In this document: one piece after another, positions 3,742-60,145 of the stretch
Layout: each line of letters starts with the position of its first letter
How positions within the stretch are numbered: the first letter of the stretch is position 1
NCBI GenBank assembly: GCA_016748015.1
Contig: JAAOMT010000659.1
Coordinates: 685,222 to 749,221, forward strand
Reading direction: 5' to 3'
From: Geosiphon pyriformis uo1
Taxonomy: Eukaryota > Fungi > Glomeromycota
Length of the DNA stretch: 64,000 nt
Position numbers and translations under genes: made by a program
The notes under the pieces: generated by a model
What the model saw: the letters and a program-made list of their open reading frames with translations, nothing else
Told to the model about the DNA's origin: nothing
Databases searched by the model: none

Positions 3742-4467
3742 TGTTATGAGTTGGAGTAACAAGCTAACAGATAGCAAGGGAAAACAGGATTGTAGGGTGA
3801 TGGAAATAATCAAAGGGGAATTCAACTTTAAAGAGCGAATTTGAATGAGTATAGATTCAATGTGCAAGATCAGTTTCATAGAATATCTCAGTCACTATTT
3901 TTTTCAAAGGTAACTGGGGAATCTGAAGATAGAGGGATAGTCCATACTGTTAACAATTGATCACCACTAGTATAATTCTATGCCTTACATTGGTGCTCTT
4001 AGAATTCAATATCAGGTATCAACTTGTGCTTTTTAGTCATGTTTATTTAAATAATCTTCAAATGCTACAATTATATATGTCAAAAAAAAGCCAACAAGTA
4101 ATCTTTTACCTTTAAAATGTTCAGATACTTGAAGGTAGAGAAAGAAAAATTAGCAATAAAAGAAAGATTGAGATGAAAGTTGTTATTTTATTTATTTTTG
4201 ATTATTTAGATGTTTGTTATTAAATGCTTTTCTACAGCTAAGAGATTTATCACTTATATAGCTGTCAAAAATGGTCAATGATCAGGTTAATGATCAGGTC
4301 AATAATTAGGTCAATGATCAGGTCATTGATCAGGTCAATGATTAGGTTAACAGTCAGGTCATTGATCAGATCAATGATCACTTTCTAAAAATAGTGTGGC
4401 TAATCATATGACATCAGTGGCTAATACATGTAATAATTAATAAAAACTATGAGTTTCAACCATAATA
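3742..4467 (-). repeat. A2 3' LTR
   Basis: Near-identical to 10696-11404; contains the 12-bp GATCAGGTCAAT array and TATATAA on the minus strand. Confidence 0.92.
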
Positions 4468-7400
4468 TCATTCTCTCCAAAGAGATTGAGCTCCAGCGAA
4501 ATCAAACTATTTATGGAATATTCTAATTGAAGAATTTTATCTAACTCAAAACTAACTAGTTTGTTAAAGTTTTTTGTGGATAAAGTGTATAGTACTTGAG
4601 GTGAAATGAGCTTTGTATCCAAAAGACCAAATTTTTGTATAAGAGTTTTGGCTCTTCTGGCAATGATCAAAACTCTTGGGACATCCAACTGTACAATGCC
4701 CAAAATTTCCACTTGTTTTCTTCATGAGCTTCATGTCTTTTATGATTTCACCAAGGTGATCATAGAGCTCTAATTGTCTTCCATATGACAAGTTTTTGTC
4801 TATGAGCAAGATTTCTTTAATCGTTTTTCCAATTGTGGTGGAAGATACAAGTATTGCTGTTGTTATGCTTTCCAACAGATACTTATTCTTTTTGCTACTA
4901 ATTTTTTCTCTTCTGGTAGTTGTTTTCTTTGGTCTGATAACAGTATGAGTTCCACTGTTGTCAGTTATTGTGGTCTGTTTTCCAATAGTCAAGGTAGCAT
5001 TTGGATGGTTTTTGATCCAATACTTATAGAGAGTATAGAAAACGTTTTAAATGTTTTGATCCAGAAAATAATTGTTCATGTTGATTAAAGATACCTCTGT
5101 TTTGAGAATGGTGCATTTATTATACTTGGTTTTTGCTAATCATTTGGGTTGGTATTACCACAACTGATAACCAATCAAGTCATTTGTAATATTTCTTAAG
5201 TTGTGTGTTATGAACAGGTTGATCATTAAAGATTGTTCCAGATTGATCTTGAAGAATATAAGAACTATTGTTCAAAACTTTTTTGACTATAAAGAGTTCT
5301 TTCCACCGGCTAGAGAATTTATCACCATAAACATTGTCTCTGTCTGAACGGTATTCTAATACCAAGTCACCAACACTTAAAGAAAGTGTTTTATAGGTTT
5401 TCTTCTTTTTAAGCTTTTTTTGAAACTGTTTTATCTTTTCTAAAGCAACTATTCGTGCTTCTACCAATAAGTCAAGAATGGTACCAAGTCTTTTTTGCAA
5501 AATGTCTTTGTAATTTGCTATTGTGATCTTTTCAAAGGGTATTGTCTCAATGTTAGTTTCTATTAGTAGTGTTGTCATGCATCCATAGAGCAGATAAAAA
5601 GGTTCATAACTTGTTATGTCATGATTCACAGTTCTATAAGCAAACAAAGCTGAAGGCAGTACTTTGTTCCATAAATTTGTTTCTTCATTTGTTTTGGTTA
5701 AGATTTCACACAGTGTTCTATTAAAACGTTCCACTAGGCCATTTGTTTAGGGGTGATAAGGGGAGGAAAGTTTGTGATGTATTCTTATTTTTCTACAAAG
5801 TTCTTCAACCAGTGTACTGAGAAAAGCTTTTTCTCTATTAGATAAAAGTTCTCTGGGGCAGCCATGATGGCAGATGATATCTTCATAAATGAAATTGGCT
5901 ATTAAGACTGCACTTTGTAAGATAGTCAGTAGCTGTGATAATGTATCTGTTGTCATCAGGGGTTATTGTTAAGGGTCCAACAACATCTATACCAATTCTG
6001 TCAAATGGTTGACCAACAGAGATTGGATGGATATCTTCTTTTTTATTGGGTTTTCCTCTTCTTTGGCAGGTATCACAAGTTTTAATGTACTCAGCAATAT
6101 CTTTTTCCAAGGTAGGCCAATAATAGTAAGCTAGAGTTTTCTGAATTGTTTTAGTCTTTCCAAAATGTCCAGCTAATGGATCAGTGTGCATGTTATAGAT
6201 CACAATTTCTCTTTTTTCAAATCTTATAACTCTTTAGAGGCAGTCAGGATCTTTTCTATTTCTTTTGTATAATTGGTTTTGGCAGATTAAATAAAAATTT
6301 AATTGTTTATGCAAATGTTCTCTTTGTTGTCGAGTGTATTTCAGTAAGTATTGTCCTTTACCCAAAAATTCTATTAAGGCAGAGTAGTTGTCCAAGTCCA
6401 TTATCATGTTTGTTTGTGGGAAAGTTACTAATAATTAGTTTGGTTTGGTTTGAGGTGGTTGTACTGTCACTTAGTGGTAAGTTTGGAAAGAATGTTAGCA
6501 TTTTGATGATTAGCTCCTTTGCAATGTTGAATATTATAGTCAAATTTGTTCAAGTGGAGTATCCAGCAAGTTAATCTTTTGTGTTCTAGCTTCTTTTTGT
6601 TGCACAGCCAAACCAAAGCTTGGTGATTTGTTACTACCAAGAATTTGGCACCAAGAAGATATTTGTTCTAATAACTAGTAGTTCATACTACTGCCAGACA
6701 TTTTTGTTCAGTCACCAAGTAGTTCTGCTCTGCTGGTGAGAGAGTTCTACTGGCATATGCTATGGCATGTTTTTTGTCATTTTCATTTTTTTGGAATAAA
6801 ACAGCTCCAAGTCCATAGCCAGATGTATCAATGTGGAGGATGAAAGGTTGATCTAGATTAAGTTGCTTCAGAATTGGTTTAGTGACTAGTTTTTTCTTTA
6901 GAGTTTCAAAAGCTTTTTGTTGGTGTGTGTCCCAATAGTAGTTGACGTTTTTCCTGAGTAGCTGATTAAGTAGAGCAGCTATTTTGGAGAAATCCTTGAC
7001 AAATTTGTGATAATAGGAAGCCAAACCAAGGAAAAAGCATAGTTCATGAACATTCATTGGTTGTCTAATGTTCTGGACTTTTTCAACCTTAGCTGGGTCA
7101 GGAAAGATTCCATCTTTTGTGATAAGATGACCAATGAATTAGGTGAATTGTCTTTCAAAGAAAGATTTAATCAGGTTGATCTTGAGATCTGCATTTCTAA
7201 GAAGATCAAAAACCTTTTGCAAATGTTTAAGGTGTTCATCCCAGGTTTTTGAGTACACTATTATATTGTTCAGATAGACCAGAACAAAGTTTTCTTTCAC
7301 TAATTCAAATACTTTATCTATTAAGCATTAAAAAGTGGGAGGGGCATTAGTGAGACCAAAAGACATGACTGTGAATTCATAGATACCATACTTGGTAATG

Positions 7401-10400: not shown

Positions 10401-10672
10401 AAAGTTGTCTTCAAAATAAGCTTGGTTAAAATAATAAGTTGTATATGCTGTATAAGTTTCAGCTGAGTGCTTGTTTAGGAACCAGTTCCAAAAGTCTTGG
10501 AATTGTCTATTAGATTGTTCTTTAAGGAGAAAGCAGATCAAGCAGGAGGGCAAGAGATTGAGTTCAATAAAGTCTAGATCGTTTCTGTTGTATGCTGCAA
10601 AGTGTTCTTCTGATTGCTGTTGCAGGTATAAATAATCACCCATACAATAAGAAAATAAGTGAATTTTGACAA

Positions 10673-10689
10673 CCTCATAGGGAGCACCA
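10673..10689 (-). promoter_or_regulatory. Primer binding site, probably elongator tRNA-Met (A2)
   Basis: Minus strand reads TGGTGCTCCCTATGAGG, 6 nt from the LTR; resembles the complement of the eukaryotic tRNA-Met(e) 3' end. Confidence 0.75.
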
Positions 10690-10695
10690 CTTTTA

Positions 10696-11404
10696 TGTTA
10701 TGAGTTGGAGTAACAAGTTAATGGATAGCAAGAGAGAACAGGATTGTAGAATTATGGAAATAATCAAAGGGGAATTCAACTTTAAAGAGCGAATTGAATA
10801 AGTATGAATTCAATGTGCGAGATCAGTCTCATAAAATATCTCAGTTGCTATTCTTTTCAAAGATAACTGGGGAATCTGAAGGTAAAGAGATAGTCCGTAT
10901 TGTCAACAATTGATCACCACTAGTATAATTCTATGCTTCACATCAGTACTTTTAGAATTCAATATTAGGTATCAACTTGTGTTTTTTAGTCATGTTTATT
11001 CAAATAATCTTCAAATGCTACAATTATATATGTTAGGAAAAGGCCAACAAATAATCTTTTATCTTTAAGATGTTTAGATACTTGAAGGTAGGAAAAAAGA
11101 AATTAGTGATAAGAGAAAGATTGAGATAAAAGTTGTTATTTTATTTATTCTTAATTATTCAGATGCTTGTTATTACATGCTTTTTTACAGCTAAGAGATT
11201 TATCACTTATATAGCTGTCAAAAGTGGTCAATGATCAGGTCAATGATCAGGTTATTGATCAGGTCAATGATCAGGTCAATGGTTAGGTCAACAGTCAGGT
11301 CATTGATCAGATCAATGATCACTTTCTAAAAATAGTGTGGCTAATCATATGACATCAGTGGCTAATACATGTGATAACTAATAAAAACTATGAGTTTCAA
11401 CCAT
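10696..11404 (-). repeat. A2 5' LTR (terminal bases displaced to 21534-21537 by element B)
   Basis: Direct repeat of 3742-4467; PBS adjacent. Confidence 0.92.
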
Positions 11405-12261
11405 TGTTACTCATAGAATATAGAAAATATAGTATTATTAGTTAGTAGATATTAGCCAATTAGATGTAGACGTAGTAAATGTGGAATTCCAGGATTTCTC
11501 TTAAAGGAATTGCAGGATTCCAGGAATTTCAAAATTCCCCAATGAGGAATTGCAGGATTCCAGAATTCCAGAAATTCCAGGATTCCTGTCACAAGGAATT
11601 GAAGAATTGAGAAATCTCAATTATGTATATATAGCAATAGGATTAGAAGCTAAAAAGACAGACCTCTCAAGTTTAGATTTAATCTAAGCAACTCTTCAAA
11701 TCACAATTATCTAATAAATAACTATTTGTTATCTTAAATCTATTTCCACTATTAACACTTTATGTTGATAGTAATCGACACTTAACCACACTAGAACAAT
11801 AGCTCTTAATCATGGCTATTGACAGAATACTAACTTGCAAATCACCTTGGCTTATTTCTTTTCTTTCTTTATTTTCTTTTCTTTTCTTTATTTTTTTGCT
11901 TTGATTTTATTGTTGTTTACTAACTCTATTGAGGATTAACGCACAGGACACTGACGTCAGGATAAACATGACTGGTAAAAGACCCAGGAATAAAGGTAGA
12001 ACACTCGATTGAAGATAGCTTACCAGGAGGAATACTGGCCACCAAGCTGAGAAAGAAATTGACAAAACTGCAGTTTCAGAAAGCTACAAATAAAACTATC
12101 ACCATTGAATCTCTGTTTATTATACAAAGAATTCAACTAAACTCTTCAGATACAAATCCTTTAGGCACAAACCTTCAGATTACTATCAACTGCAATTAGA
12201 TTTGAGTACCAAGTTATGGATTTTTTATTTAACCCAACAACAGAAATAGTCACTTGTAACA
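11405..12261 (+). repeat. B 5' LTR
   Basis: Direct repeat of 20641-21529; GGAATTCCAGGATT-like internal repeats precede TATATATA. Confidence 0.94.
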
Positions 12262-12263
12262 TT

Positions 12264-12280
12264 TGGTGCTCCCTATGAAG
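12264..12280 (+). promoter_or_regulatory. B primer binding site (same tRNA as family A)
   Basis: TGGTGCTCCCTATGAAG, 2 nt after the LTR end. Confidence 0.8.
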
Positions 12281-12281
12281 T

Positions 12282-15200: not shown

Positions 15201-18200
15201 ACTGATGACCTAACATAAACTGACAACAATGAGAGTGAACCGACTTCCAGCTGGGAATGGGAAAAAAACAAAGAAGATAAAGGAAAAGGGAAAGAAAAAG
15301 AAGAAGAGACCACCCAAATTACCATCACTTATAATACCTACACTATACCATAACGATCTATCTATCATCGACTTAAGCTTATATGCGTCGATTGTGGCAA
15401 AAAATTGTTGTCAATAGGCACATGCTGTGGTGATAATGAGAAATATTCAATGGCAACTAAGTTCTATTACCACCCATGCATCCTTGAACACTTTGGGAGA
15501 CCAGAATGTGTAGGAAAATGGGACAACCAATCATGCTTAGCTTGTAGAGAGACTCTTTTTGACGAAGGAATGTGGAACAACATTTCTAAACATGAAGGAA
15601 TGTACAATGTATTGTGTCAATACATGATCCTCATCAGCAACTGGATACGAAAAGGGACACCAATAGAAGCCACTTGGAGAAGAGCCATACAGTGATTGGA
15701 CAGTTGTCCACATGATGACAACAAAATATGGTGAATAATGACCGCAAAAATCGAGAGCACATCACTAAAAAAGATTAGGGAGATCAAAAACAACCCACCA
15801 GAACCCATAGAACTGGACTGAGACCCAAAACCAGTCATAAATCTGTTAGATCCAGAACAATTCTATAAACACTACCAGGAATTAGCACTTACTAGAGAAG
15901 AACAAGAGCAATATTTGGAAGAAATAAATACCCAACTATGTGACCACTGTTTGATTCCATATGACTTTCAGTATTGTAATGAGTGTGATCTCATTTACAA
16001 TCCACCACCATGCATGATCTACATAATCCCCGAAGAGAAAGAACCAATCAGCAGCTGTGCATCAGAATCGGAATTGATTTTCAATCCCAATTCAAACTCC
16101 CACAAAAATGACAATGAAAACACTAGTTCCAGCTTCATTCAAAATGGCATTAACAACAACAACAATTCCAACTCAGATTTAAACTCAGATTTAAACTATG
16201 AACAATATATCGTGCTCCCCGACCTCACCAAAGAGCAGGAACTTAAATGGTTCAATAATAACAATGAAGGTATTATGCCAAAATGCGTGCATGATACAGA
16301 TGTCAGATTTGATCTGAGATATTCTGGAAAAGAGGCCATCAAATTGGAACCATATTCACACATTTGCATTGATCTAAAAATAGCTTTAGAAATTCTAGCA
16401 ACAACAATGATTCAACTAGCATTTAGGAGTAATTTAGCAAAAAGAGGAATAAACATCAGAGGAGGAATAATTGATACAGGATACATAGAAAATATTATTG
16501 CTATGCTACAAAATAACTCAGAAAAGACCTATATAATAGAGCCCAACAAAAAGATAGCACAGACAATATTCCTGCCTCTGGTTAGAGTAGCTTAGTTAGT
16601 ATCAATGAAAAAGAGGGAGAAATTAGAAATAACAGCGAGAGGAATACAGAGATTCAGATTGACAGGTAGAGTAGATGTACCAGTCAATATGACAGAAGAA
16701 GAAATTGTTGACCAAGGAGAAATTATCTCAATGGGTCAAGCAATTTTTATTCCACCATATGGCCAGTACATGATAAGGATAAAGTGGGAAGTAAAAGAAC
16801 AGAATCAGATTTTTGAAGCAGAATCAACCCTTTGTGAATCAGAAGAGATTGAATTCATCAATCTCCATATACCAGCCAAAGATTACAGCCATATCAAAAT
16901 TTCCATCTACAATAACACAGGAAATGTCATAGTAATACCAGCCGAAACTACCATTGAATACTTAAACACTGAAATAGAGAATCAACCACCAAACATTATT
17001 CCAGACTTTCCACAGTTTTGTGAATATGTCAATATCACATCACAAACAATATATAGACGAAGCAAATGTTATTTGCTCCAACCAGAACAATTGGAATAAA
17101 TAAACATAGGAAACTTAGATCCACTCTAACATATGTAACTTAAGATATTGCTCAACAATTTTAATGACATCTTTGCCAGCAAAAACAAGTTTGGCTGAAC
17201 TAATATTATCTAGCATCAAATTAAGACTGGAGATGCAATACCAATTAAACAGTGAGCATACAGAGTATCACTAGCCAGCCATGAAATTATCCATCAAGAG
17301 ATCAACTAAATGCTTAACAATGGGTTAATTCAGCTATCAATAAGCCCATGGTTATCACCAGTAGTACTCATCCATAAGAAGAATGAAAAAATCTGATTTT
17401 GTATGGACTACAAGAAACTCAATAATGTAACTCATGGAGACAACTATTCAACTCCATGGATACAAGAACTATTTAACACTTTTGGTGGAAACAAATAGTT
17501 CTCAATGTTAGATTTAGATAGTGATTACTGGCAAGTAGCCATAGATCCAGCTGACAAAGAAAAAACAGCATTCACCACAAGAGAGAGAAACTTTAAGTTT
17601 GAAGTTATGCCATTTGGCTTAACCAATGCTTCAGCGACTTTCCAATGGCTAATGGAAATCATTTATACTGGTTTATTGTGGAAATCAGTAATTGTATACT
17701 TGGACAACACCAATGTATTCTCAAAAACATTTGATGATCATTTTTATCATCTTCAACAAGTGTTTAAAAAACTAAGAAGAGCAGGACTAAAGTTAAATGC
17801 AACAAAGTGCTTCTTCGGCAAGACAGAACTAAAATTCTTAGAACACATAGTCAGCAAAGATGGCATCAAAATGGATCCAGAGAAAATAGAGATAGTAAAA
17901 AACTTTCCAGTGCTGACCAATATGATAGAACTGAAATTATTTTTGGGATTCACCAGCTACTATTGATGTTTTATCAAGAACTTTTTCAAGTTAGTGCAGC
18001 CACTCAACCAACTGCAAACCAAGAATACAAAATATGAATGGACAGAAAGTCAACAAGAAGCTTTTAATATTCTGAAAAAAAAGTTTATTCAAGCTCCAGT
18101 ACTGATCTATCCAGATCACAGCAAACCATTCATCATCACTACTGATGCATCCAGCCAAGCATTAGGAGCAGTACTATCTCAGAGAAGACCAGACAGCAGA

Positions 18201-20640: not shown

Positions 20641-21529
20641 TGTTACTTATAGAATATAAGAAATATAGTATTATTAGTCAGTAGATATTAGCCAATTAGA
20701 TGTAGACATAGTAAATGTGGAATTCCAGGATTTCTCTCAGAGAAATTGCAGGATTCCAGGAATTTTAGGATTCTCTGACGAGAAATTGCAGGATTTCAGA
20801 ATTCCAGGATTCCTCTCACCAGGAATCACAGGATTCCAGGAATTCCAAGATTCCTGTCACAAGGAATTGAGGAATTGAGAAATCTCAATTATGTATATAT
20901 AGCAGTAGGATTTGAAGCTGAAAAGACAGACCTCTAAAGTTTAGATTTAATCTAAGCAACTCTCTAAATCACAATTATCTAATAAATAACTATTTGTTAT
21001 CTCAAATCCATTTCCATTATCAACACTTCATGTTGATAGTAATTGACACTTAACCACACTGGAACAATAGCTCTTGATTATGGTTATTGACGGAATACTA
21101 ACTTGTAAATCACCTTGGCTTATTTCTTTTTTTTTTTTCTTTTTTTTTCTTTTTTTTATTTTTTTGCTTTAATTTTATTGTTGTTTACTAACTCTATTGA
21201 GGATTAACATGCAGGGCACTGATGTCAGGATAAATGTGACTGGTAAAAGACCCAGGAATAAGGATAGAACACTCGATTGAGGATAGCTTACTAGGAGGAA
21301 TACCAGCCACCAAGCTAAGAAAAAAATTGATGAAACTGTGGTTTCAGGAAGCTACAGATAAAACTATCACCATTGAATCTTTGTCCATTATACAAAGAAC
21401 TCAACCAAACCCTTCAGATACAAACCCTTCAGGCACAAACCTTCAGATCACTATTAACTGCAACTAGATTTGAGCACTAAGTTATGGGTTTTTTATTTAA
21501 TCCAACAACAGAAATAGTTACCTGTAACA
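20641..21529 (+). repeat. B 3' LTR
   Basis: Preceded by the polypurine tract AAAAGAAGGGAATAA; repeat of the 5' LTR. Confidence 0.94.
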
Positions 21530-24500
21530 CCATAACAATACCATTATGTCGTCCAAGTAAACCAGAACAAGGTTTTTTTTTACTGATTTAAATACTTTAT
21601 CCATTAGGTGTTGAAAGGTGGGAGGAGCATTGGTAAGACTAAAAGGCATGACTGTGAATTTATAGGTGCCATACTTGGTAATAAAGGCAGTTTTTTTTCT
21701 GCTTTCTGAATTTATTTCTACTTGCCAGAATTCAGCAGTTAAGTCAATGGTTGAGAAGAAAGCAGCACCATTGAATTTATCTAGCATTGCATCAATTTTA
21801 AGAAGTGAGTACATGTCTCTTATAGTGATGGCATTTAGTTGGTAATAGTCAACACAGAAGTGTAGGGTTCTATCTTTTTTGGGTATCACTACAACTGAGA
21901 AAGCCTATTTACTCTTGGTTTCTTGTATAAATCCAAGATTTTTCATTCAGTTTATTTCTTTCTTGATGAATTTATCATTGTATTAATTGGATTGATAAGG
22001 CTTCAAATAAATGGGACAAGTTTCTTTGGTGGTAATAATGTGTTGTATCACATGGGTTCGTCCAGAGATGTCACTTTCTTTTGAAATAACTGGATTATTT
22101 CTAGCCAACAGATTTTTAATGTCTATTTTTTTTTCTTCAAGAGAAGATTCTCTTTGTTCTATGGCTAGTAATTGGATTTCAGGTGGTTCATTCTCAAAGG
22201 ACTTTTGTACTTCTTTAAGTTCTTTTCAAGGTATCAAGCTAATTGGTTCCCAATCTTTATAATTGATCAGGCAGAATTTGCATTCATCACTTGGTAAATA
22301 CAAAGATTTATTATACCAGCACTATACACAAAGACCATGTTACCAATAGCTGTATTTGGCTTTTTTGCCAGGTTTTCTGTCAAAAGTTTTTCTGAGAATA
22401 TTATAGTAGGGCCAGCAGATTAGCTTGCCATTTACTATGATTTCTTTTTTGTCAGCTTTAATATTGTCCAGTGGCTTGCCATTGCTGGTAAAGATAGTAT
22501 AAGTGAGTTCAGCAGTTTCTTCTTGTTCTTCTTGATCTTCATCATCACTCTCATTATCATCTGATTTATCTAATTGTTTTTCTTTTTGATTTTGCTTGGG
22601 TACTGGAGAGGTTGTCCAGTGACAGCACTTAACTACAATGGGTTTTTCACTATATCTGATGATTAGCTTACAAAGCTTATAGTCAAATAGCACTTTAGCT
22701 TTCTTAAGCCACTTATTGTCAACAATTATGGTGTACTCTTTTGCTTTAGATACTTCCATGTCAGTTTCAATGCTGATACCATTAATGTGAACAGAAATAG
22801 CTTTGGCTATGCCCAGGCCTTTTTTCTTGTTACCATGTATGTTGGTCATTGGTCTTGTAGAAGGCTCATCAATCTTTCTGCCAATTGTTTCAAAAAAATG
22901 TTTGTCAATTACACTAATAGATAATCCACTGTCTAGGATCAGATCAATAAAGTAACCAGCCACTTGGGCTTTACAAATCAGAGAGGTGACATTGCTGTTA
23001 TCAGCAAGTCTAACTTGGCAAAGACATTTGTTAGTTTTTGGTGTCTTCTTCTTTAGTATTAATGATTTGCAAAAATTTTTTCTGAACTGTGGATGGGTTA
23101 TCAGTTGGCCAAATGTAATGTGTGCTGGGGTTTCCATGAGATCTTTAACAACAGAATAAGGTCCAAATTTTTGTACAATTTCTGGGGGTTCCAACTTTGG
23201 AGGATTTTTAAAAACCTTAGTCTTTAGTGGCTCATTGTTATCAGCAGATAATTTGGATGCTTTGTTTGGATCTAAAATGAAATCAATCTTGGCTTTTTTC
23301 TTCTTTCTGGTTGATTCAGAGATGTTAATTGCTAGTTCATTTATATCATAATTATCATCAGTTAGGTTAAAAGCATAAAAGAGGTTTTTTTCTGGTTGGC
23401 TTGCACTCTTACTCTTTGGAGGTGCGCCTACCAGTTTAAAGGCTAATAAACAGTGGCTTTAACTAAGAGATTCTTTTCAAAAAAATTGATGTTAGCATGA
23501 TTGGTTCTTTGATTAAGGATATTGTTGTTAATAATTCTGTTGTTTTGATTGTCATTGTTTCTAGGAGTTAAAGGAAGCAAGGGAGGATTGTTACAATCTC
23601 TAGAAAAATGTCTAGTTAATCCACAGTGGTAACACACAGATGGGCCACAATTTTGTTGTCTTTGATATGGGAGTTGCTGTGATTGATTAAAACGGGATTC
23701 AAATCTGGGTCTTTGGGTTTGTTGATTCTCTCTGACAGCTTGGGCTAAGAGTTCCAGTAACCAGGCAAGATTAGCTGTGAGTCTATCTATTAACTGTTCA
23801 TTTGGGTCTTGAGTTTGGGCAGCAAAAGAGGTAGCAGCCATTTGAAAAGCAGGAGCCATTACAGGAACAGGAGCAAAAACTGAAAGTGTGAATCTTAGGT
23901 ACATCCTTTAATTGTCTTCTATTCTCTGAGCAAATTCAATGGCCATATCTATTGTGGGATTATCTTTCAAGACCAGAAGGGGCCAAAGAGCATATAATAG
24001 ATCAGTTCTTAGTCTTTTTGTGAAGAAATATATTTTCTGCTCTTCTGTTCAATTTTTTTTAGAGTCTACTTATTCAATAAGTTTTTTTATTGCTTTGACA
24101 TATTCTGTCACAACCTTACCAGGGCCTTGAGTTCTTTTTTCTAATTTTATATGCCATTTTGAGATTAAGATAGAAGTTCTAAATTTCATTTTAAACTGGG
24201 TAATAAAAGAGATGTTGTCTTCTCCAGCATTTGCTAGTGCCCATTTAATGATTCTTTGCTGAGCATTGGCATTGGTTTCTTGTAAGAACCAAGTAGCAAG
24301 AAAGCCTTAAAAGTAGCCACCAACAATTTGGAACTTGTATTCATTATCATATTGGTTTGCTGTGGCAGCTTTCTCAAAATTATCCAGTCATTTAATTGGA
24401 TCTTGAACATCACCTTTGAATAATGATAATGGGATGTTGTTTCTTTACCCTAAAGCAGTTTGTATATCTTAAAGGGCAATTAGAATGTTTTGTTGTAGAG

Positions 24501-25033
24501 AGTCTTGAGCCATTGGTTCAGGTATAACTGTTTGTGTAGAGTGTTCTGATTTACTTGAAAAGATGTCAAAAATGGAAGCAGTTTAATAGCTTTCTTCTTC
24601 TGTTTCAAAAAGAGTTTCAGTTGATTAATGAGCAGCAATCTAAATGTGGATTTGATGATTCAGATATTCGAAATCAGAGGGCTGTTGTTCAAAAGTTGTA
24701 AAATATAAAAGCTGATTAATACTGTTGTTTTTTTCTTCAAAGTTATCTTCAAAATAAGCTTGGTCAAAGTAATAGGTTGTATAAGCTGTGTAGATTTCAG
24801 CTGAATGCTCATTCAGAAACCAGTTCCAAAAGTTTTAGAATTGTTTGCTGAATTGTTTTTAAATGGGGAAGCAAATCAAGCAGAAGAACAAAGAATTGAG
24901 TTCAATAAAGTCTAGATTATTTTTGTTGTGTGCTTCAAAGTGTTTTTTTGATTATTATGACAGGTATGAATAATCACTCATACAATAGAAAACAAAGTGG
25001 ATTTTGACAATCTCACAAGAAGCACCACTTTTA

Positions 25034-25728
25034 TGTTATGGGTTGGAGTAACAAGCTAACAGATAGCAAGGGAGAACAGAATTGTAGGGTAATAAAAATA
25101 ATCAAAGAGAATTCAACTTCAAAAAGCAAATTGAATAAGTATGGATTCAATGTGCAAGATCAGTCTCATAAAATATCTCAGTTGCTATACTTTTTAAAGA
25201 TAACTGGAGAATATAAAGATAGAGAGATAGTCTGTACTGTTAACAAATAATCATGTCTGATATAATTCTATGCCTCATGTTGGCGCTCTTAGAATTCAAT
25301 ATCAAATATCAGATGTGCTTTTCAGTCACGTTTTATTCAATAATCTTCAAATGCTGTAATTACATGTTTCAGGAAAAGATAAAAAATAACCAATAAGTGA
25401 TCTTTTATCTTTTTAGATACTTGAAAATAGGGAAAAGGAAATTAGTAATAAGAGAAGAATTGAAATGAAGTTGTTATTTTATTTCTTTTATTTCTTTGAT
25501 TCTTACATGTTTTTTTTACAGCTAAGAGATTCATCACTTATATAGCTGTCAAAAGTGGTCAATGATGAAGTCAACAACTAGATCAATGATCAAGTCAATG
25601 ATCAGGTCAATGGTCAGGTTATTGATCAGGTCAATGATCACTTTCTAAAAATAGAATTGTTAAATTATGTGACATTAATGGCTAATACATGTGATAATTA
25701 ATAAGAAGTATAAGTTTTAACCATAACA
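25034..25728 (-). repeat. A1 5' LTR
   Basis: Family A LTR; its end matches window positions 1-34. Confidence 0.9.
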
Positions 25729-31700: not shown

Positions 31701-32486
31701 AGATTATTTTTGTTGTGTGCTTCAAAGTGTTTTTCTAATTGTTATGGCAGATATGAATAATCACTTATATAATAGAAAACAAGGTGAATTTTGACAATCT
31801 CACAGGAAGCACTACTTTTATGTTATGGATTAGAGTAACAAGCTAACAAATAGCAAGAGAGAACAAGATTGTAGGATAATAGAAATAATCAAAGGAATTT
31901 CAACTTTAATAAGCAAATTGAATAAGTATGAATTTAATGTGCAAGATCAGTCTCATAAAATATTTCAGTCACTATACTTTTCAAAAATAATCAGGAAATT
32001 TGAAAATAGAGGAATAGTCCATACTGTCAACAAATGATCACATCTGATATAATTCTATGTCTTATGTCAACACTCTTAGAATTCAATATCAAGTATTAGA
32101 TGTACTCTTCAATTACATTTTACTTAATAATTTTCAAATGTTGCAATTACATGTTTCAGGAAAAGAGTAAGGAATAATCAACAAGTAATCTTTTATTCCA
32201 AGATATTCAGATACTTGAATGTAGAGAAAGGGAAATTAATGATAAGAGAATAATTAAGATAAAAGTTGTTATTTTATTTATTTTATTTTTTTGATTTCTA
32301 TATGCTTTTCTATAGCTAAGAGATTCATTGCTTATATAACTGTTAAAAGTAGTCAATGATCAGGTCAATGATCAGGTCATTAATCAGGTTAATAATCATT
32401 TTTTAAAAATATAGTGGCTAATTTATATAACATTAGTGGCTAATACATATGATAATTAATAAGAAATATAAGTTTCAACTGTAACA
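25729..32486 (-). mobile_element. Ty3/Gypsy family A copy A0 (host of A1; 3' part lies outside the window)
   Basis: Resumes mid-ORF3 at GTATAATGC; IN, RH, RT, PR and gag remnants; PBS; 5' LTR 31821-32486. Confidence 0.9.
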
Positions 32487-34069
32487 ATAATATGTAATAA
32501 TTAATAAAAATTATAGTGTTAATCATAATATTATTAAACTGTTTCTGTTTTTGATTTTTTTTAAGTAAATTAAAGCTTTTTAAAAAACAGTTATTTCTAA
32601 ACCAATGACTATTAATTTTATATAAGCAAATATTTTGATTACTTTTTAAAATATATAACTTGCTTTTAAAACAAAAAAACAATATTTTACTATTTTTATT
32701 TAAAAATAATACATAAAATCTAATTAAATAATTAAATAACTTTAAAAAAACAGCAACAGCCAATTAATACAATAATACTTACAAATTACAGATTGTTGAT
32801 AGTTATTTTTAAAATTTTTTTACTATCTGGTTTTAACAAAAAACTATTATTAGTGTTTTCTAAAAAATAAAAAAAATTTTAAAATACAAAAAAAACAATA
32901 TTTTTATTATTATTTAGTTTGAATAAAAATTTAAAATTTTAATTTTAATATCTAAATAATACATGAAATTAGAAAAAAAATTCAAAATTTTGGTAATTAA
33001 ATATGCCAAAGTTATAAAAAAGTTAATTAAGCAAATAGACTCTAAAAAAAATTAAACAAAAACTTTATTTTTTTACAAAAGAATTAAGAATTAATTAATC
33101 ATATGCTTTTTGGTTTTTTTTGGTTTTAAAAAATAATTTTACAATAAATATAACTATTAAACTTGTTTAAAAAATCAAAAACAATTAAAAAATATATTTG
33201 GAATTCATATTTTTAGTTTTTGTTTTTGTTTTGACTTTAGCTTTTTAAATAGCTGTTATTTCTTTTGCTAATTAAATTTAAGATTTAAATAAACAGCTTA
33301 TAGATAAGCTTACTGCTAATTTTATCTGATTATTTAAATTATTAGCACAAGTAATAAAAAAATTCAATAATATTAGAAACCTAAATTTAAATCTTATATT
33401 AAGCAAAATTATAACTTATTTGTATATTACTATTGTAAATTAATTAAATACTTTTTAAAAAATTGTAACAATTTATTTTTGCTTTTATTAATTTTTAAAA
33501 ACAATAACAATCAAAACAATAAAATTAATAATAATAATATTTTTAATCAAAAATTTAATCATATAAACCTAAATTTTTTTGAAAAAAATTTCTTAATTAA
33601 AGTTATTACTTATTAATTTTTAAGTTAATAAGCATATTATTAAAAAGTAAGAATATAAATTAACAAAAAAAATTTTTTTTATGTATTTAATCTAATTAAT
33701 AATAATTATAATATAAATAAATTAATTATTAATCTTTTTAATTTTACAAAAAAAAACCAAGATTGATTTTATTCTAAATTTTAACAAAGTTACTACATTA
33801 ATTACTAAAAACAATAAACAATTAAAAACAAAAGTTTTTAAAAATTTTTAAAAATTGTACAAAAATTTGAATTTTATTCTATTGTCAAAAATTTTATAAA
33901 AACTCAAATACAAAAAAAAAAAACTTCTTTCTTTCCTTCATCCAAAAATCCCAAAAAAGAGTCTATAGTTTTTTTGAAAGAAGTTTTTTTTTTTTTTTTT
34001 ACCATTCAGTACAATAAATCAAAACCATTCTTTGATTACGAGGCCACTGTTGGCTCTGTTATTACTGTT

Positions 34070-35868
34070 ATGAAGAAAATTGTTAAAGCTTCTGGTTCTG
34101 AGGGTGGTTTCAAGACTGTTGCATCAAGGAAGAAGAAAAAGAGAGGTGTGTTGGAAGAAGGTATTGATAATAAAGGGGTTGCTGCTGAAGCTCTTGGTAC
34201 TCGTTCATGGGGTTCTGAGACTGGTGACACTATGGAATCTGAGAGTATTGACATGGAGGAAGAATGCTTGGTTAAAGAGACTAGTGTAGACTATGATGAT
34301 AATAGTACTCTCATAGGAGGGAATCCTGATCAAACACCAAAGGGTTTGCATGTAAAGACCAAGAAAGTATTAGGGAAACCGTTGGGTGTAATTAATTATG
34401 ATACTGTTGATGCAGAAGATAATGTGTTGGATGATTCTCTTCTTCTCCTATCTTCTCTTCCAGTCAAGCCATCCGTTCAAGTGCCTGTTCGCAAATCCTT
34501 TGCTTTAGATATTGATCTGGTAGCAGTGGCTGGAAAATTCTCTCAGAAAAAAGTCGATTTTGTCAGAAAAATCTTTTCAGGTGTAAATGGTTTTGGGAGA
34601 GTCTCTACTCCCTCAAAATTTGGTGGAATCATCTGGGTATCTTTCACTTCTGAAAAAGCAATGATGGCAGCTGTGCAGTTGGCAAATGATTATGGTGTTG
34701 TGGTAAACACTAATCTTAAGTGCCCTATCAACAATTATACAAATTGGGCAATTGTGTTGAAAGAAATTCCTGTGGGAACTTCCATTGAGGCAGTGCGTGC
34801 AGCCATTTCTGAATTTGGGTTTATTAAGTCGATCAAAATGCAGTTGGTGGGTCTATGGCAAAAGGCAATCATCAAATTAGAGGATCAAATTTAGGCTAAT
34901 CTCTTGGCAGCTGAGTGGTCTATCCTTATTGGGAAAGATGCGGTGTGTGTGGCCCAAGCCGATATTGACAAACAAACATGGAATGCCAAAGATGAGTTTA
35001 GGGCTTTGCTTTATATGCCCCTCATGGACACCAATGCTCATGATTTCTGGGACTTCATTGGTTTGATTGGTGGGAAAACATGTGTTATTGAATGCAGTTC
35101 TGTTAGTTATGTCTGAACACACTGTGCCACTGTGTGCTTTGATTCTGAGGATAGCTTTATTCAGGCAATGACAAACACTTCTGTTATAAAAGGTGTTGGT
35201 CTCTGATAATCTTGTTTAACTACTGCATGGTGCTCAATTTGCAAAACTTCTGGTTATATTTCTCTTGCTTGTCATACTGCTAGTGTGTCCTCAAGTCCTA
35301 GGAGCAAAAGAGCTCCTCTTTCGGCTCAGGATCAGTTCTGTCTGGCAAAGATTTATGAAAAAAAATCTGCTCTGTTTCTCATCCTTTGGCTTTCAGTGGA
35401 AAAACTTGGGCCTCCGTGGTTGGTAATCCACTCCTGATAGTGTTTTTTGGTGATTCAGCTCAATCTGGTTCTATATCTTATGATAAATCTCTTCTGACTG
35501 TTAATGGCGAATTGGAAGACCGTTTGAAGAATATTGAAAGCAGTCTTGTCAGCCTTACAGGACAGATTGGTGAGTTGGCTAAGAAGTTGGACTTATTCAT
35601 GCCAGCAGTTTCTCAGCCTAGCCCTGGATGTCAGCTGCTGGTAACCCTCCCATCGCAGAATTAAGGGGAGGATATAGTGATGGAAGTGGGTTTGGGTGAT
35701 GCCACTAGTGACAAGACTGCTGCCATTCTTGGTTCAACTGCCTCACCTAAGATTGTAAAATTGGAAAACATGTTGGAAGATCTCTCTGCTTTGGTCATAA
35801 GCCTATCAGCGCACTTGGATGGTTTGGCTTTGGCAGGTGGTGCTTTTCCTTTACCTCTTTCTCAATGA
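34070..35868 (+). pseudogene. LINE ORF1
   Basis: In-frame fragments 33974, 34904, 35386 and 35677; basic N-terminus and a C-terminal coiled-coil-like segment; may begin upstream of this ATG. Confidence 0.75.
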
Positions 35869-38800
35869 ATGGTCTGATATAGAAAATTGCTACATGTAAT
35901 ATTCATGGATTGAACAATCCTGTGAAGCAAAATAATGTCATTCATTGGCACAAGGATATGGACAATTTAGTTTCTATTTTCACAGAGTCAAAGCTTAAAG
36001 AGAAAGTTTGTCTATGGTTGGCCGACAAATTTGATGGTGTTCGGGTTTTTACTTCTGGTCTGAATTCTGGTTCTTCGGGTGCTGGGATGTTAATTGTCGT
36101 GAATTCTTCTTTAGCAAAGCACATCTGTAAAATTTCTGAGGTGCCTGGTCGGCTCTTATCTATCAAGTTGCTTTTCAAAAATAAACTTTCAGTGTCTATT
36201 TTGGGGCTCTATGCTGGTATGTCACCAGTGGCTTGGTTTTTTCAGGCTGGTGAGATCAACTCTCTTATTGCTAAAGCCATTAATGAGTCCTCTTTTGTTA
36301 TTCTTGGTGGTAATTTTAATGAGAATGGTTCACACAAATGTGCCAGTTTCAAAAAATGTTCTAATTTGGGTTTGATTAACTCTCTGGGAGGGAGCTCTTT
36401 TGTAAAATCACCTACTTGGTGCAATTCTTATGGTATTACTAAGACAATTGACTACGTGTTTGTTTCTTCTAATTTGGTTGGTGTAGTGATGGATTGTGGT
36501 GTGGATGGTGTTGGGGAATATTTTGATACTGATCACAAGGCTGTTTATATTTCTGTGGAACTGGGTGGCCTGCTCAATGTTCAGCTGAATTTACTGCGCA
36601 AACAGGCTAATAAAGATCATTGGAAGTATGATATCAAAAATACCAGTGAGATTAAGTGGTTAGAATTCAGGAATGCTATGGCTGCTAATGCTGTTATGTT
36701 TTCAGATGAGTTTGTTATGGCTAAGCAGTTTTCTGATCTGGATGCAATATGGGACATTGTTTATAAGGTTGTGGTTCTTTCTGCTAGTGGTACATTTAAG
36801 AAAAAATGGTTTAGGGGTTTCGATTGTGTTTTTAATAAGGTTTCTTTCTGGTTTTATAAATTGAAGCTACTTGTGTCTAAACTGGTGAAGGCTTCTCAGA
36901 TGGTTTCTGGCAGGAATTTTGCCTTGTTGTTGGATACTTGGAACAGGCTTGATTCTGTGGGCACTTCAATGATAAGATTTTTGTTTCTTTCTGGTGTCGG
37001 TTTTGATGCAATCCATTCTGGGCTGGCTAAGGTGAAAAAGTCTTACTGCTCTTCTAAGTTGTTGAAATCAAAGCAAGCTGAAGAATCTGGTATAAGGCAG
37101 ACTATTGAGAGAAGGATGGAGAGTTTTGAGGTGGATAAGGGTCATACCATTAGAAGTGTTTTGGAGCATCTTTTTTATAAAGTGGTGCTGGATTATTTGG
37201 TGGATGGTAGGGAGTTGGTCTTGGAGCCTGAGTTAGTTAAATCTAAGGTGGATGGAATTATGGAGGGTTGAACTCGAAAACGTGTGGTGGCTTCTGATAT
37301 CTCTGGTGATTGGGCTAGGCAATTTTGGCCTTTGGATCATGTCTTTGATGGTGCCTTTTTGAATGTAATACATTCAATCAGTTTCAATGAGATGTTTGGT
37401 GTTGTTTCAAATTTGCCCAATGGGAAAGTGGCTGGTCTTTCTGGTATCAATAATAAACTTTGGAAACATGGTCTTGAATATGTTTTTGGTGCTCTTAAAT
37501 TTTTGTTTAGGTTGTGAGTCTGTGCCTGGGCCCTGGAGGGAAGCCTGGGTCTCAATAATCTCTAAATTTTATGAGTGGGAAAGGGTTCTTACAAATACCC
37601 ATCTGATTGCTTTGATTGAGACAGCTCACAAGGTCCTTTCCAAGATTTTGTCAGATCGGATTTCTCTGGCTTGTAGCAGTTTTGATGTCCTTTGTGGGGA
37701 CAATTTCTCTGTCCTGAAGGGTACGTCTACTCAATCACCTATCTTTGCTATTGGTTCAGTAATTGAAGATGCTTTGAAAAAGAACTAGGAGTTGTGATTA
37801 GTTTTACAAGATATGCGCAAAGCTTATGATTCTGTTGGTTGGGAGCATCTCAAGAGAAGTTTGGTTAGGATCAAAATGTGTGACAAATTTATCAGGTTTT
37901 TTGATAGCATTTATAATAGTCGCACTAACAGAGTGATAACGGATTTTGGTTTGACTGATGGATATCATGTTCACGATAGGTTGGATTAAGGGGAGGTTTT
38001 TTCGCCACTTCTCTGGCACATATTTTATGACTCACTTTTGTGTGAGATTAAGAGACAGGAGAGCATTTATGGTTACAGGTTGATTTCTCATTTCGTTTCT
38101 AAGACTGGCCAGATGGAATCGCAAGCTGGACTGTCATTATTTCTGGCTGCTGGTGCTTTTGTTGATGATACTATCTGGGTTGATAGCAGCCAAGCTGCTA
38201 CACAACACATTCTCAATGTTGCTAGTGAGTTTTTTCATTTAAATGACATTTCAATAAACAATAACAAGACTGTGAGCATTCCTATCAACTGTCAAGTCGC
38301 TGCTCCTTATTTAACTATCAGTAGTGTGCCAATTTCCATCACTAAAAGAGGTGAACCTCATCAGTATCTGGGTATTTTTTTGTTTTCTGAGGGTCTTTTG
38401 AAGCCTAGCTTAGTTAAGGCACATTTGAATGTTTGGTTTTTTGTCAATCTTATTCTGAGAAAAGTTATTTCAGATAAACAGCTTGCTTATTTGGTGTCTT
38501 CAGTTCTCTTTCCTATCGTCAGCTACAGAACTCAGTTCAGTTTTATTCCTCTCAGTGTGTATAATAAATGGGACACTTTGGTTTGCAAAAATCTGAAATC
38601 CAAATCTGGGCTGCCTCTGGACTTTTCCAATGATGCTTTTCATCATCCTTCATTGTACAATTTAAAAACTTTTGAGCAGATTCAGGCTGAAAGCAAGTCA
38701 GCTTCTGTTATTACTTTTGCGAATTCGGTTGGTGTTTTGGGTTGCTTATTTTCTCATAGGTCTCATGATCTCCAGGTTCTTAGCTGGTGTCCTCATTACC

Positions 38801-40542: not shown

Positions 40543-41026
40543 TGTTGTTCTGACTAGTCTTAGTGTCTGGTCGCGTGTAGTGAAGGCATGATTCACACCT
40601 AGTTTAGATCATTTATATGATGTATAGCACTAGGTGGCATTTGGACTTCACTCGTTAAACTTTAAAAAAAAAAAAAAAAAAATTCAAATACATATTACTT
40701 TTAGCCAACTAATAATCTATTTTTAGTTCAAAAAAAATCTGTATAAATTCTTAATTCTAAAAAAAAAGATTTCAAAAACCAATAAGTGTTTTTATTAAAC
40801 TGAATTTTATAATAATAATAATAATATTTTTTTAATTTACAAAGTTTAAATAATTTGTTATTTTATTAACTTAATTTTAAATAACAGATTATTTGTTAAT
40901 ATTATTGTTAAATACTTTTTTAAAGTAATTGATAAAAAAATTAATAAATCTTTAATTTAGCTTATAATTAATATATATAATAATAAAGAAAAAGTTTTAA
41001 TATAATTAAAGCTATTTTGTTTATAT

Positions 41027-41716
41027 TATTATAGATTAGAATAATAAGCTAATAAATAATAAAATAAAACAGAATTATATGATTAATAAAATTAAAAAGA
41101 AAATTTTAACTTTAAAATATAAATTAAATTAATATAAATTTATTGTATAAGATTAATCTCATAAATATCTTAGTTGTTAATTTTTTTAAAAAATAACAAA
41201 AAAATTTAAAAATAGAAAAATAATATATTAATATAATTTTATGTCTTATATTAATATTTTTAAAATTTAATATCAGATATTAATTGCATTTTTCAATAAT
41301 ATTTATTTAATAATTTTTAAAACTAAAAATTATAAATAAATACCAACAAATAATCTTTTATTCATAAATGTTTAAATACTTAAAAAAACAAAAAAAATAA
41401 ACAAATTAAAAAAATTAAATATTTAAAAATAATTTCTATTATTTTGATTTATATATATCAAATATATTAAAATATGTTTTTTTATAATTAAAAAATATAT
41501 TACTTATGTAACTATTTAAAATAACTATTAATTAAATTAATAATTAAGTTAATGATTAAGTTATTAATTAAATTAATAATTAAGTTAATAGTCAGATTAT
41601 TAATTAGATTATTAATTAGATTATTGATTATTTTTTAAAAATAAGATGGCTAACTATATAATATTAATAACTAATATATAAATAATTAATAAAAATTATA
41701 GTTTTTAATTATAATA
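41027..41716. repeat. Highly eroded family A LTR
   Basis: Collinear AT-shifted match to the A LTR, including the decayed 12-bp array and terminus. Confidence 0.7.
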
Positions 41717-42889
41717 TTATGTTTTATATTATAAATATTTATATATAATTTTATATAAAAGTTTTGTTTTTAAAAAATAATTTTATTGTTTTAAAGTTAG
41801 TTAATTTTGTTTGTAATTTGGTAATTGGTCATAAAAAAAAGATTTAATTAGCTTAAATTTAAGACTAAATTAGAAAAAAATAACAGATTATATATAAATA
41901 ACTTTGTATTTTTTGTTGTATATAATCTTTTAATTATTATATTTTATAATATAATATAAATACTTAATATTATAAAAGCTTATATTATAGTTTTTGGTTT
42001 AAAATAAGCTGTTTATTTTTTTGGTTTTAACAATAATGTTATAATAAAAATAAATACATAATATAGTTTTAATTGGCTTAAGTGGTTATATATAACAAAC
42101 ATTTAAATTATGTTTAATATAAATACTTAATTTGTATTAAATTGTGATTGGGCTTTGTTTATTAAATAAATAAATATTATTAAAACTAGTTTTAGTGTAT
42201 TTTTTTAATTAAAAAAAAAAGTGCTTTTAAATTAATTAAAGACAGAAAATTTCAAGAAAAACATTTCAATAATGTGGTGTTTAATTGTTTTTACTACCAA
42301 AAAGACTTCTAAGCAGTAATATACTGTTACAGATTGGAGTAACAAGCTAATGGATAGCAAGGGAGAACAGTATTGTATGGTGATGGAAATAAACAAAGAG
42401 GGAATTACAATAAAGGAGCGAATTAAATGAGTAAGGATTTAATATGCATAATCAGTCTCATAAAAATCACAGTTGCTAATCTTTTCTTAAATCTGAAGGT
42501 AGAGGAATAGTCCATGATTGTCAACAAGATAACACCACTGCTATTATTTTATGTTTCAACTCGGCAATTCTTAGAATCAATAACAGGTATCATTGTGCTT
42601 TTTAATCATTTCTTTTATTCAATGAATTACAAGAGCAAGCCAATTGCTTCTTAGGCTAATTCTAACAAATACAAATCAAAAAGGGGAAAAGATAAGGTAT
42701 GTAAATGCCAACAAGTAAATACTTGAAGGTAAAAAAAGGGAAATAAGCAATATGAGAGGAAGTAATTGATATTGTTTTATTTCATTACTTTGATCATGTT
42801 TTTCTACAGCTAAGGGAATCATCACTTATATAGTTATCTAAAAATAGGGTGGCTAATTATATGACATCAGTGGCTAATACATGTGATAA

Positions 42890-49197: not shown

Positions 49198-49766
49198 ACA
49201 ATGAGGAAATAAGTGAATTTTGACAACTTCACAGGAAGCACCACTTTTATGTTATGGGTTGGAATAACAAGCTAATGGATAGCAAGAGAAAACAGTATTG
49301 TATGGTGATAGAAATAAACAAAGAGGGAATTACAATAAGGGAGCAAATTGAATGAGTAAGGATTCAATATGCGTGATCAGTCTCATAAAAATCACAGTTG
49401 CTAATCTTTTCTTAAATCTGAAGGTAGAGGAATAGTCTGTGATTGTTAACAAGATAACACCGCTGCTATTATTCTATGCCTCAACTCAGCGATTCTTAGA
49501 ATCAATAACAGGTATCGTTGTGCTTTTCAATCATTTCTTTTATTCACTGAATTACAAGAGCAAGCCAATTGCTTCTCAGATTAATTCTAACAAATACAAA
49601 TTAAAAAGAGGAAAAGATAAGATATGTGAATGTCAACAAGTAGATACTTGAAGGTAAGAAAAGGGAAATAAGCGATATGAGAGGAAGTAATTGATATTGT
49701 TTTATTTCATTACTTTGATCATGTTTTTCTACAGCTAAGGGAATCATCGCTTATATAGCTATCTAA

Positions 49767-49855
49767 AGTGGTCAACGACCAGGTCAATGATCAGGTCAAT
49801 GATCAGGTCAATGATCAGGTCAATGATCAGGTCATTGATCAGGTCAACGGTCACT
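49767..49855 (-). promoter_or_regulatory. 12-bp tandem array (GATCAGGTCAAT) in the A LTR U3, just upstream of TATATAA
   Basis: Present with variable copy number in all A LTRs except 42325-42920. Confidence 0.7.

Positions 49856-60106: not shown

Positions 60107-60107
<1 letters not shown>

Positions 60108-60143
<36 letters not shown>
60108..60143. repeat. (ATG)n microsatellite
   Basis: About 12 perfect units. Confidence 0.9.

Positions 60144-60145
<2 letters not shown>

What the first reader, a model, noticed from the sequence alone, without database searches (positions are those of the whole stretch)
10823..10883. Family A U5 carries a split copy of the tRNA-Met anticodon arm bridged by a hairpin
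Seen on the + strand: TCAGTCTCATAA (10823-10834) and AATCTGAAGGT (10873-10883), also at 49377-49425 and, more decayed, in the other A LTRs. Established from recollection: eukaryotic elongator tRNA-Met contains TCAGTCTCATAATCTGAAGGT. The element RNA is therefore antisense to the whole anticodon arm of the tRNA its PBS matches. In A2 the spacer is an inverted repeat (TCTCAGTT...AACTGGGGA) that could extrude and join the two boxes. Inference: an extended primer-template interaction, analogous to the Ty1 boxes or the Ty3 bipartite PBS. An alternative is a captured intron-containing tRNA fragment, since the break falls at the canonical intron position.
Basis: partly seen in the sequence, partly recalled or inferred. 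Interest (0 to 1): 0.8.

Follow-up and report, generated by a model that had tools for sequence, protein, structure and literature searches.

The report
Retrotransposon LTR mirrors primer's anticodon arm
A fungal jumping gene carries, just upstream of its normal primer site, two short boxes that together are the exact mirror of a methionine tRNA's anticodon arm; they likely give the tRNA primer a second grip on the element's RNA, as in HIV, and may derive from a captured intron-bearing tRNA gene.

Summary
In Ty3/gypsy family A (nearest named proteins from Geosiphon pyriformis), the 3' part of the LTR (likely U5) carries two boxes. Together they match nt 27-47 of tRNA-Met genes exactly, antisense on the element RNA, about 145 nt upstream of an elongator-Met-type PBS. 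The 21-nt split match was not approached by 1500 shuffles (max 16) or 150 non-Met tRNAs (max 14). The boxes are 21/21 unchanged between two LTR subtypes whose flanks are 189/234 alike (p 0.01-0.09). Family B (44% RT identity, unalignable LTR, same PBS) carries box 2 in both LTRs. Best reading: an extended primer-template contact like HIV-1's U5 contacts with the anticodon loop, 3' stem and variable loop (inferred, untested). The bridging hairpin is not conserved: the A4 type lost one arm. The 40-nt spacer sits at the 37/38 intron site with a correct anticodon-intron helix, so capture of an intron-bearing tRNA is a plausible origin, compatible with later function. The host's own tRNA-Met gene was not seen. 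The mechanism class is known (HIV-1, Ty1, Ty3, Drosophila gypsy); this layout was not found in my searches or in the scan's earlier notes.

The parts
10823..10833 (-). Box 1: element RNA antisense to tRNA-Met nt 27-37 (5' anticodon stem and loop); 10834 adds nt 38
10834..10873 (.). 40-nt spacer at the tRNA 37/38 position; intron-like on the + strand (anticodon-intron helix at -3 to -6, internal hairpin)
10874..10883 (-). Box 2: element RNA antisense to tRNA-Met nt 38-47 (3' anticodon stem and variable loop); 10873 adds nt 37
10672..10689 (-). 18-nt PBS of copy A2, matching the 3' end of an elongator-type tRNA-Met, 6 nt from the LTR end
10696..11404 (-). 5' LTR of copy A2; its last 8 nt lie at 21530-21537, beyond the inserted element B. 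TATA-like site at 11213, AATAAA at 11149 and 11000, so the boxes are likely in U5 (inferred)
3870..3930 (-). Boxes in the A2 3' LTR (2 and 1 mismatches)
25160..25220 (-). Boxes in the A1 LTR (box 1 exact, box 2 decayed); PBS at 25010-25027
31947..32007 (-). Boxes in the A3 LTR (box 1 exact, box 2 decayed); PBS at 31797-31814
41153..41212 (-). Decayed boxes in a heavily C>T/G>A-mutated lone A LTR
42452..42500 (-). Both boxes exact in the A4 3' LTR, 28-nt spacer
49377..49425 (-). Both boxes exact in the A4 5' LTR, 28-nt spacer; PBS at 49226-49243
12171..12182 (+). Family B 5' LTR: antisense to tRNA-Met nt 36-47 (box 2 plus 2 nt)
21411..21448 (+). Family B 3' LTR: box 2 exact at 21439-21448, preceded by two partial tandem copies (9 and 7 nt)
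12264..12281 (+). PBS of family B, same tRNA-Met type as family A

Best explanation
The two boxes likely form a second docking site for the element's primer tRNA: once the 18-nt PBS has likely bound the 3' end of elongator tRNA-Met, the boxes about 145 nt upstream would pair with tRNA nt 38-47 and 27-37, with the spacer looped out. This would open the anticodon arm and stabilise, select or position the primer for minus-strand initiation, likely with help from the CCHC nucleocapsid of Gag. Shown: sequence match, orientation, position relative to the PBS, conservation between A subtypes, and box 2 in family B. Inferred: U5 location, host tRNA identity, pairing in the particle, and the step that needs it. 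The boxes may have entered the LTR as a captured piece of an intron-bearing tRNA-Met gene or pre-tRNA and been kept by selection while the intron-like spacer drifted.
For: Match is to the tRNA type read by the PBS: 101 of 118 loci found with a T-arm plus PBS motif carry a CAT anticodon (my count). Five PBSs match the 3' 15 nt of the L062 tRNA-Met at 11-13 of 15, all misses but nt 59 being C>T or G>A. Split match of 21 nt is far beyond controls. 21 of 21 box columns are unchanged between A2- and A4-type LTRs versus 189 of 234 in the rest of 10697-10990, while the spacer has 18 of 39 columns changed or gapped (p 0.011, or 0.093 counting only transversions and gaps). Family B (RT 44% identical to A4; no alignable LTR) has the same PBS and box 2 in both LTRs; the exact 10-mer arose in 3 and 7 of 3000 shuffles of its U5 regions. 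Identity stops sharply at nt 27 and 47 (0-1 of 12 upstream, 4-5 of 12 downstream). Model energies: duplexes -13.5 and -16.1 kcal/mol against opening costs of 7.1-7.4 (RNA) and 5.8 (tRNA). Precedent in HIV-1 (PMC3185550).
Against: No host tRNA-Met gene was seen. 0 of 118 tRNA-like loci with the PBS-type 3' end had box 1 exactly, 2 of 118 had box 2, and three intron-bearing Met genes had different anticodon stems. Other U5 blocks are as long unchanged as the boxes (20, 19 and 19 columns). In 2079 laid contigs the boxes show only C>T or G>A decay, but non-decay variants are rare anyway (6 sites in the other 125 positions), so this does not discriminate. Family B has only a weak box-1-like site (-4.9 kcal/mol), and any 10-nt match to the tRNA arose in 76-77 of 3000 shuffles. 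Energies ignore tRNA modifications, tertiary fold and the 145-nt loop. In HIV the role of the equivalent segment is disputed (PMC3185550: deleting nt 127-152 had no detectable effect).
Confidence: 0.55

Rival explanations
1. Neutral relic: a piece of an intron-bearing tRNA-Met gene or pre-tRNA (anticodon domain plus intron) was captured once and has no role in priming. Its persistence reflects a slowly changing or otherwise constrained stretch of U5.
For: The break is exactly at 37/38, the eukaryotic intron site (PMC10275265). The A2 spacer is 40 nt; real Met introns here are 26, 31 and 38 nt. It forms C32:G(-3), U33:G(-4), C34:G(-5), A35:U(-6) in both A2 LTRs (nt 32 has decayed to T in the 3' copy), a 4-mer found at 14 of 3468 LTR positions. 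2 of 3 real introns also have the C32:G(-3) pair. In the A2 5' LTR the spacer folds better on the tRNA-sense strand (z -2.5) than on the element RNA (z -0.5).
Against: The exons stayed unchanged while the intron lost 12 nt and its helix in the A4 type. No D-arm or T-arm remnant. Box 2 recurs in family B. The strand asymmetry is not seen in the A2 3' LTR (-7.7 sense versus -8.6 antisense).
Confidence: 0.2
2. The boxes do bind tRNA-Met but act at another step: primer packaging, RNA dimerisation or circularisation, or minus-strand transfer if the RNA 3' end runs past the boxes.
For: Drosophila gypsy has a second 11-nt tRNA site against the anticodon and T stems that binds tRNA but is dispensable for cDNA synthesis (PMC1635307). 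A tRNA-like sequence in HIV-1 U3-R promotes minus-strand transfer (title cited in PMC6468702). The R/U5 border here is inferred from AATAAA motifs only.
Against: The last AATAAA in the A2, A4 and A1 5' LTRs lies over 110 nt upstream of box 2, so the boxes are likely absent from the RNA 3' end. Their order relative to the PBS fits the HIV initiation contacts.
Confidence: 0.2
3. Chance resemblance, or an internal half-tRNA priming site of the copia/Ty5 kind.
For: The LTR is AT-rich; single 12-nt matches to the tRNA arise in 6 of 3000 shuffles. Anticodon-loop priming exists in fungal Copia elements (PMC10886601).
Against: The joint 21-nt match was never approached. A full 3'-end PBS is present at the LTR end. 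Priming inside U5 would lose the LTR end, and the cited paper reports half-tRNA priming for Copia lineages.
Confidence: 0.05

Closest known systems
HIV-1 U5 / tRNA-Lys3 extended initiation complex (A-rich loop; nt 142-148) (PMC3185550, passages and sections 14 and 20 read)
   Same: Contacts upstream of a full PBS, aimed at the anticodon loop and at the 3' anticodon stem plus variable loop, in the same 5'-to-3' order. HIV-1 holds tRNA-Met as primer when U5 is changed to match its anticodon (also PMC1797187, passages).
   Different: Here a fungal Ty3/gypsy element, a natural elongator-Met primer, 21 perfect pairs covering the whole arm, 145 nt from the PBS, and no experimental proof.
Ty1 multipartite and Ty3 bipartite PBS (PMC1635307, PMC4551931, passages)
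   Same: An LTR retrotransposon RNA pairs with its Met primer beyond the canonical PBS.
   Different: They use initiator tRNA-Met. Ty3's second site is at the RNA 3' end. That their extra boxes target the T and D arms and their core PBS is short is recalled, not read here.
Drosophila gypsy second tRNA-Lys2 site (PMC1635307, passages)
   Same: A Ty3/gypsy element with an 11-nt second site against part of the anticodon stem of its primer.
   Different: That site lies near the RNA 3' end, is single, and is dispensable for cDNA synthesis; here two boxes lie inside the LTR next to the 5' PBS.
tRNA-Lys3 gene-like sequence in HIV-1 U3-R (Piekna-Przybylska 2010; only its title and a citing sentence seen in PMC6468702; paper not held)
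   Same: The primer's own gene seems embedded in the LTR; that the proposal includes an intron at the anticodon is recalled.
   Different: That site is in U3-R and aids strand transfer; here the match is exact but limited to nt 27-47 and likely in U5.
Helenus TRIMs (PMC10886601, abstract and passages)
   Same: tRNA-derived sequence inside LTRs, including in fungi.
   Different: Helenus are non-autonomous and keep the polymerase III A and B boxes. Family A has gag-pol, no A or B box in its LTRs, and keeps only the anticodon domain.

Membership tests
Ty3/gypsy LTR retrotransposon | TG...CA LTRs with PBS and target-site duplication | tested here: met
   LTR pairs 89-93% alike, PBS, 4-bp duplications (ATAC for A2 and A4, CCAT for B)
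Ty3/gypsy LTR retrotransposon | gag, protease, RT, RNase H, integrase in that order | tested here: met
   Pfam hits along A4 (gag, protease, RT, integrase), A2 (CCHC, protease, RNase H) and B (all five)
Extended primer-template interaction (HIV-1/Ty1/Ty3 kind) | Element RNA complementary to the primer outside the PBS | tested here: met
   with proxy tRNAs L006 and L062 and the human tRNA in PMC8216282
Extended primer-template interaction (HIV-1/Ty1/Ty3 kind) | The matched tRNA is the host tRNA used at the PBS | tested here: inconclusive
   PBS type is elongator Met, but no host tRNA gene was available and no single proxy matches both PBS and boxes fully
Extended primer-template interaction (HIV-1/Ty1/Ty3 kind) | Conserved above background | tested here: inconclusive
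   p 0.011-0.093 between A subtypes; box 2 in family B; no signal from within-family variants
Extended primer-template interaction (HIV-1/Ty1/Ty3 kind) | Pairing shown by probing; mutation impairs priming | not testable with these tools
   needs bench work; only model energies
Helenus / TRIMp3 | Polymerase III A and B boxes in the LTR; non-autonomous | tested here: not met
   no A or B box in four LTRs; full coding interior
Intron-containing tRNA gene | Complete cloverleaf | tested here: not met
   0 tRNA genes; no tRNA match; flanks unlike D and T arms
Intron-containing tRNA gene | Insert at 37/38 with anticodon-intron pair | tested here: met
   met in both A2 LTRs, lost in both A4 LTRs

The most novel reading that the evidence does not exclude
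A Glomeromycota gypsy lineage captured the intron-bearing anticodon domain of its own primer's gene and turned it into an antisense docking site. An anti-38-47 box in U5 is a clade-wide requirement for priming with elongator tRNA-Met, a natural counterpart of the U5-anticodon changes HIV-1 needs to hold that primer.
Probability: 0.3. Interest if true: 0.7.

Novelty: new variant of a known kind. Interest (0 to 1): 0.5.

Why it matters
Extra primer contacts are debated even in HIV-1 because they are short and isolate-specific. A perfect 21-nt, two-part site kept across LTR subtypes and partly shared with a distant family gives a clean case to test with compensatory mutations. It would extend retrovirus-like U5 contacts to fungal gypsy elements. 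It may also record how such sites arise, by capture of the primer's own gene with its intron still readable.

Tried and rejected
No whole genome is held for the window, so the host tRNA-Met gene and a genome-wide LTR set were not seen. No RNA holder listed; start and poly(A) sites were not mapped. ARAGORN found 0 tRNAs; at lowered thresholds it gave 180-185 noise calls, not used. Rfam gave 3 weak unrelated hits. A decayed RT query found 0 viral loci. In 91 related gypsy loci from viral and MAG collections I saw no Met-type PBS at an LTR end with boxes. A proxy test of 15 of their LTRs against 207 panel tRNAs could not assign primers reliably and even mis-ranked A and B, so it is uninformative. 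Split-box scans of viral contigs gave only hits without tRNA or LTR context (L002, L230, L231). A PBS scan gave 11 loci that were not examined further. Depth peaks over box 1 are not used, since contig depth is no copy count. The A1 and A3 rows of the intron-register test were one base out of register and were dropped. One 'transition' at 10834 came from a single copy and lies outside the 21 columns counted. The RT tree is the quick search only. Rejected: hairpin bridge as a conserved part, polymerase III promoter, internal half-tRNA priming.

Full report
Setting. The window is a nest of decayed Ty3/gypsy elements. Family A lies on the minus strand: copy A2 (LTRs 3742-4470 and 10696-11404 plus 21530-21537), A1, A3, A4 (LTRs 42325-42920 and 49250-49941) and a lone LTR near 41029-41720. 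A dUTPase-bearing family B (LTRs 11405-12261 and 20641-21529) is inserted in the end of the A2 5' LTR. The best 56 protein hits to an A4 protease-RT frame are named Geosiphon pyriformis, so the host is likely that Glomeromycota fungus.

Observation. Both boxes are at the stated coordinates. Box 1 is exact in 5 of 7 A LTRs and box 2 in 3 of 7; 13 of 15 mismatches are C>T or G>A (read), the dominant change in this family (113 of 183 variant places in run X1). The joined boxes equal nt 27-47 of tRNA-Met genes: the human elongator tRNA printed in PMC8216282 (passage) and 8 of 9 viral-contig hits. The best split match between the A2 LTR and that tRNA is 21 nt, against at most 16 in 1500 shuffles and at most 14 for 150 of 170 non-Met tRNAs. 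It is not chance.

Same tRNA as the primer? The PBS lies 6 nt after the LTR end (10689-10672). A scan that used only a T-arm plus PBS motif returned 118 loci, from 37 of 64 parts of the collection. By my count 101 carry a CAT anticodon, 12 another, and 5 are cut short. The PBS implies a G1-C72 pair, an elongator rather than initiator feature (established knowledge). Five PBSs match the 3' 15 nt of the L062 tRNA-Met at 11-13 positions, every miss but nt 59 being C>T or G>A. Against this: none of the 118 had box 1 exactly and only L062 and L082 had box 2, with one mismatch in box 1. Anticodon stems vary among Met tRNAs, so the host match is likely but unseen.

Position. On the element RNA the order is TATA-like site (11213), AATAAA (11149, 11000), box 2, spacer, box 1, LTR end, PBS; box 1 starts 145 nt before the PBS. 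This puts the boxes in U5 by inference; no RNA data were found.

Conservation. Between A2-type (4 LTRs) and A4-type (2 LTRs), after discounting within-group decay and leaving out the lone LTR, 21 of 21 box columns are unchanged. The rest of 10697-10990 has 189 of 234 unchanged and the spacer 21 of 39: p 0.011, or 0.093 on transversions and gaps alone. Other U5 blocks of 19-20 columns are equally unchanged. Among 2079 laid contigs only decay variants reach 5% in the boxes (10824, 10830, 10881), but only 6 non-decay sites occur in the other 125 positions, so this does not discriminate (run X1 may be the source of this DNA). Stronger is family B: RT 44% identical to A4, in the same 17-row clade as Rhizophagus elements (SH-aLRT 91, quick tree), with no alignable LTR. 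It has the same PBS and box 2 in both LTRs, with two partial tandem copies in the 3' LTR. The exact 10-mer arose in 3 and 7 of 3000 shuffles; any 10-nt match arose in 76 and 77. B's box-1-like site is weak.

The spacer. The A2 5' spacer folds at -3.2 kcal/mol (z -0.54) on the RNA and -8.8 (z -2.5) on the tRNA-sense strand. In the A2 3' LTR the RNA strand folds at -8.6, so a modest hairpin is possible in some copies. The A4 type has lost the second arm yet keeps both boxes. The bridge is therefore dispensable. The spacer does look like a tRNA intron: it lies between nt 37 and 38, is 40 nt long, and pairs C32:G(-3), U33:G(-4), C34:G(-5), A35:U(-6). This is the arrangement described in PMC10275265 (passages) and is seen in part in 2 of 3 real Met introns among my loci. 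The needed 4-mer occurs at 14 of 3468 LTR positions. No D arm, T arm or polymerase III box remains.

Mechanism. With the PBS region held apart, pairing both boxes to a proxy tRNA gives -13.5 and -16.1 kcal/mol against opening costs of about 7 (RNA) and 5.8 (tRNA). Modifications, tertiary structure and loop closure are ignored. I take extended primer-template pairing at initiation as most likely (0.55), tRNA binding for another step next (0.2), neutral relic (0.2), chance or internal priming (0.05). Capture from an intron-bearing gene or pre-tRNA is a plausible origin under the first three.

What is known. [quoted passage not shown] It keeps tRNA-Met as primer when U5 is matched to its anticodon, and the importance of these contacts is disputed (PMC3185550, passages and sections 14 and 20; PMC1797187, passages). 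Ty1 and Ty3 have multipartite PBSs, and Drosophila gypsy has a second 11-nt site near its 3' end (PMC1635307, PMC4551931, passages). Helenus TRIMs carry tRNA-derived LTRs with promoter boxes (PMC10886601, abstract and passages). PMC3601003 passages added nothing. Nine searches listed no report of this layout in fungal gypsy elements. The library lacks most subscription papers, the HIV U3-R paper was not held, and no supplements were read. The scan's earlier notes on this genome concern other features.

Verdict. A real, non-random feature: a new variant of a known kind. Function is inferred, with one key check (the host tRNA gene) still open. Interest 0.5.

Noticed in passing
window 3738-3741/21538-21541 and 42321-42324/49942-49945 (approx.): Copies A2 and A4 both have the same 4-bp target duplication ATAC, and A1's end is followed by its reverse complement, suggesting target-sequence preference; B duplicated CCAT.
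   Followed up: partly
window 11076-11090 and 49640-49655: A second, weaker box-2-like motif (7 nt antisense to tRNA nt 41-47) sits in a 15-column block unchanged between A2 and A4 types, in a region that otherwise aligns poorly.
   Followed up: no
window 15822-16595: Family B encodes a dUTPase between gag/protease and RT.
   Followed up: no
window 11225-11325: U3 of family A holds a tandem array of a roughly 12-nt unit (TGATCAGGTCAA) varying in copy number between LTRs.
   Followed up: no
window 33842-40101: A further retroelement on the + strand with weak RT and RNase H hits that does not match the gypsy RT query; type not determined.
   Followed up: no
window 32000-34000, 40000-42000, 60000-64000: Stretches of 12-20% GC with heavily C>T/G>A-mutated repeat copies, suggesting strong cytosine-deamination decay of repeats.
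   Followed up: no
window 57893-59197: Host gene with a likely membrane span and an SH3 domain.
   Followed up: no
L062 and L082: 2.2-kb metagenome contigs each packed with 18 eukaryote-type tRNA genes in one orientation.
   Followed up: no
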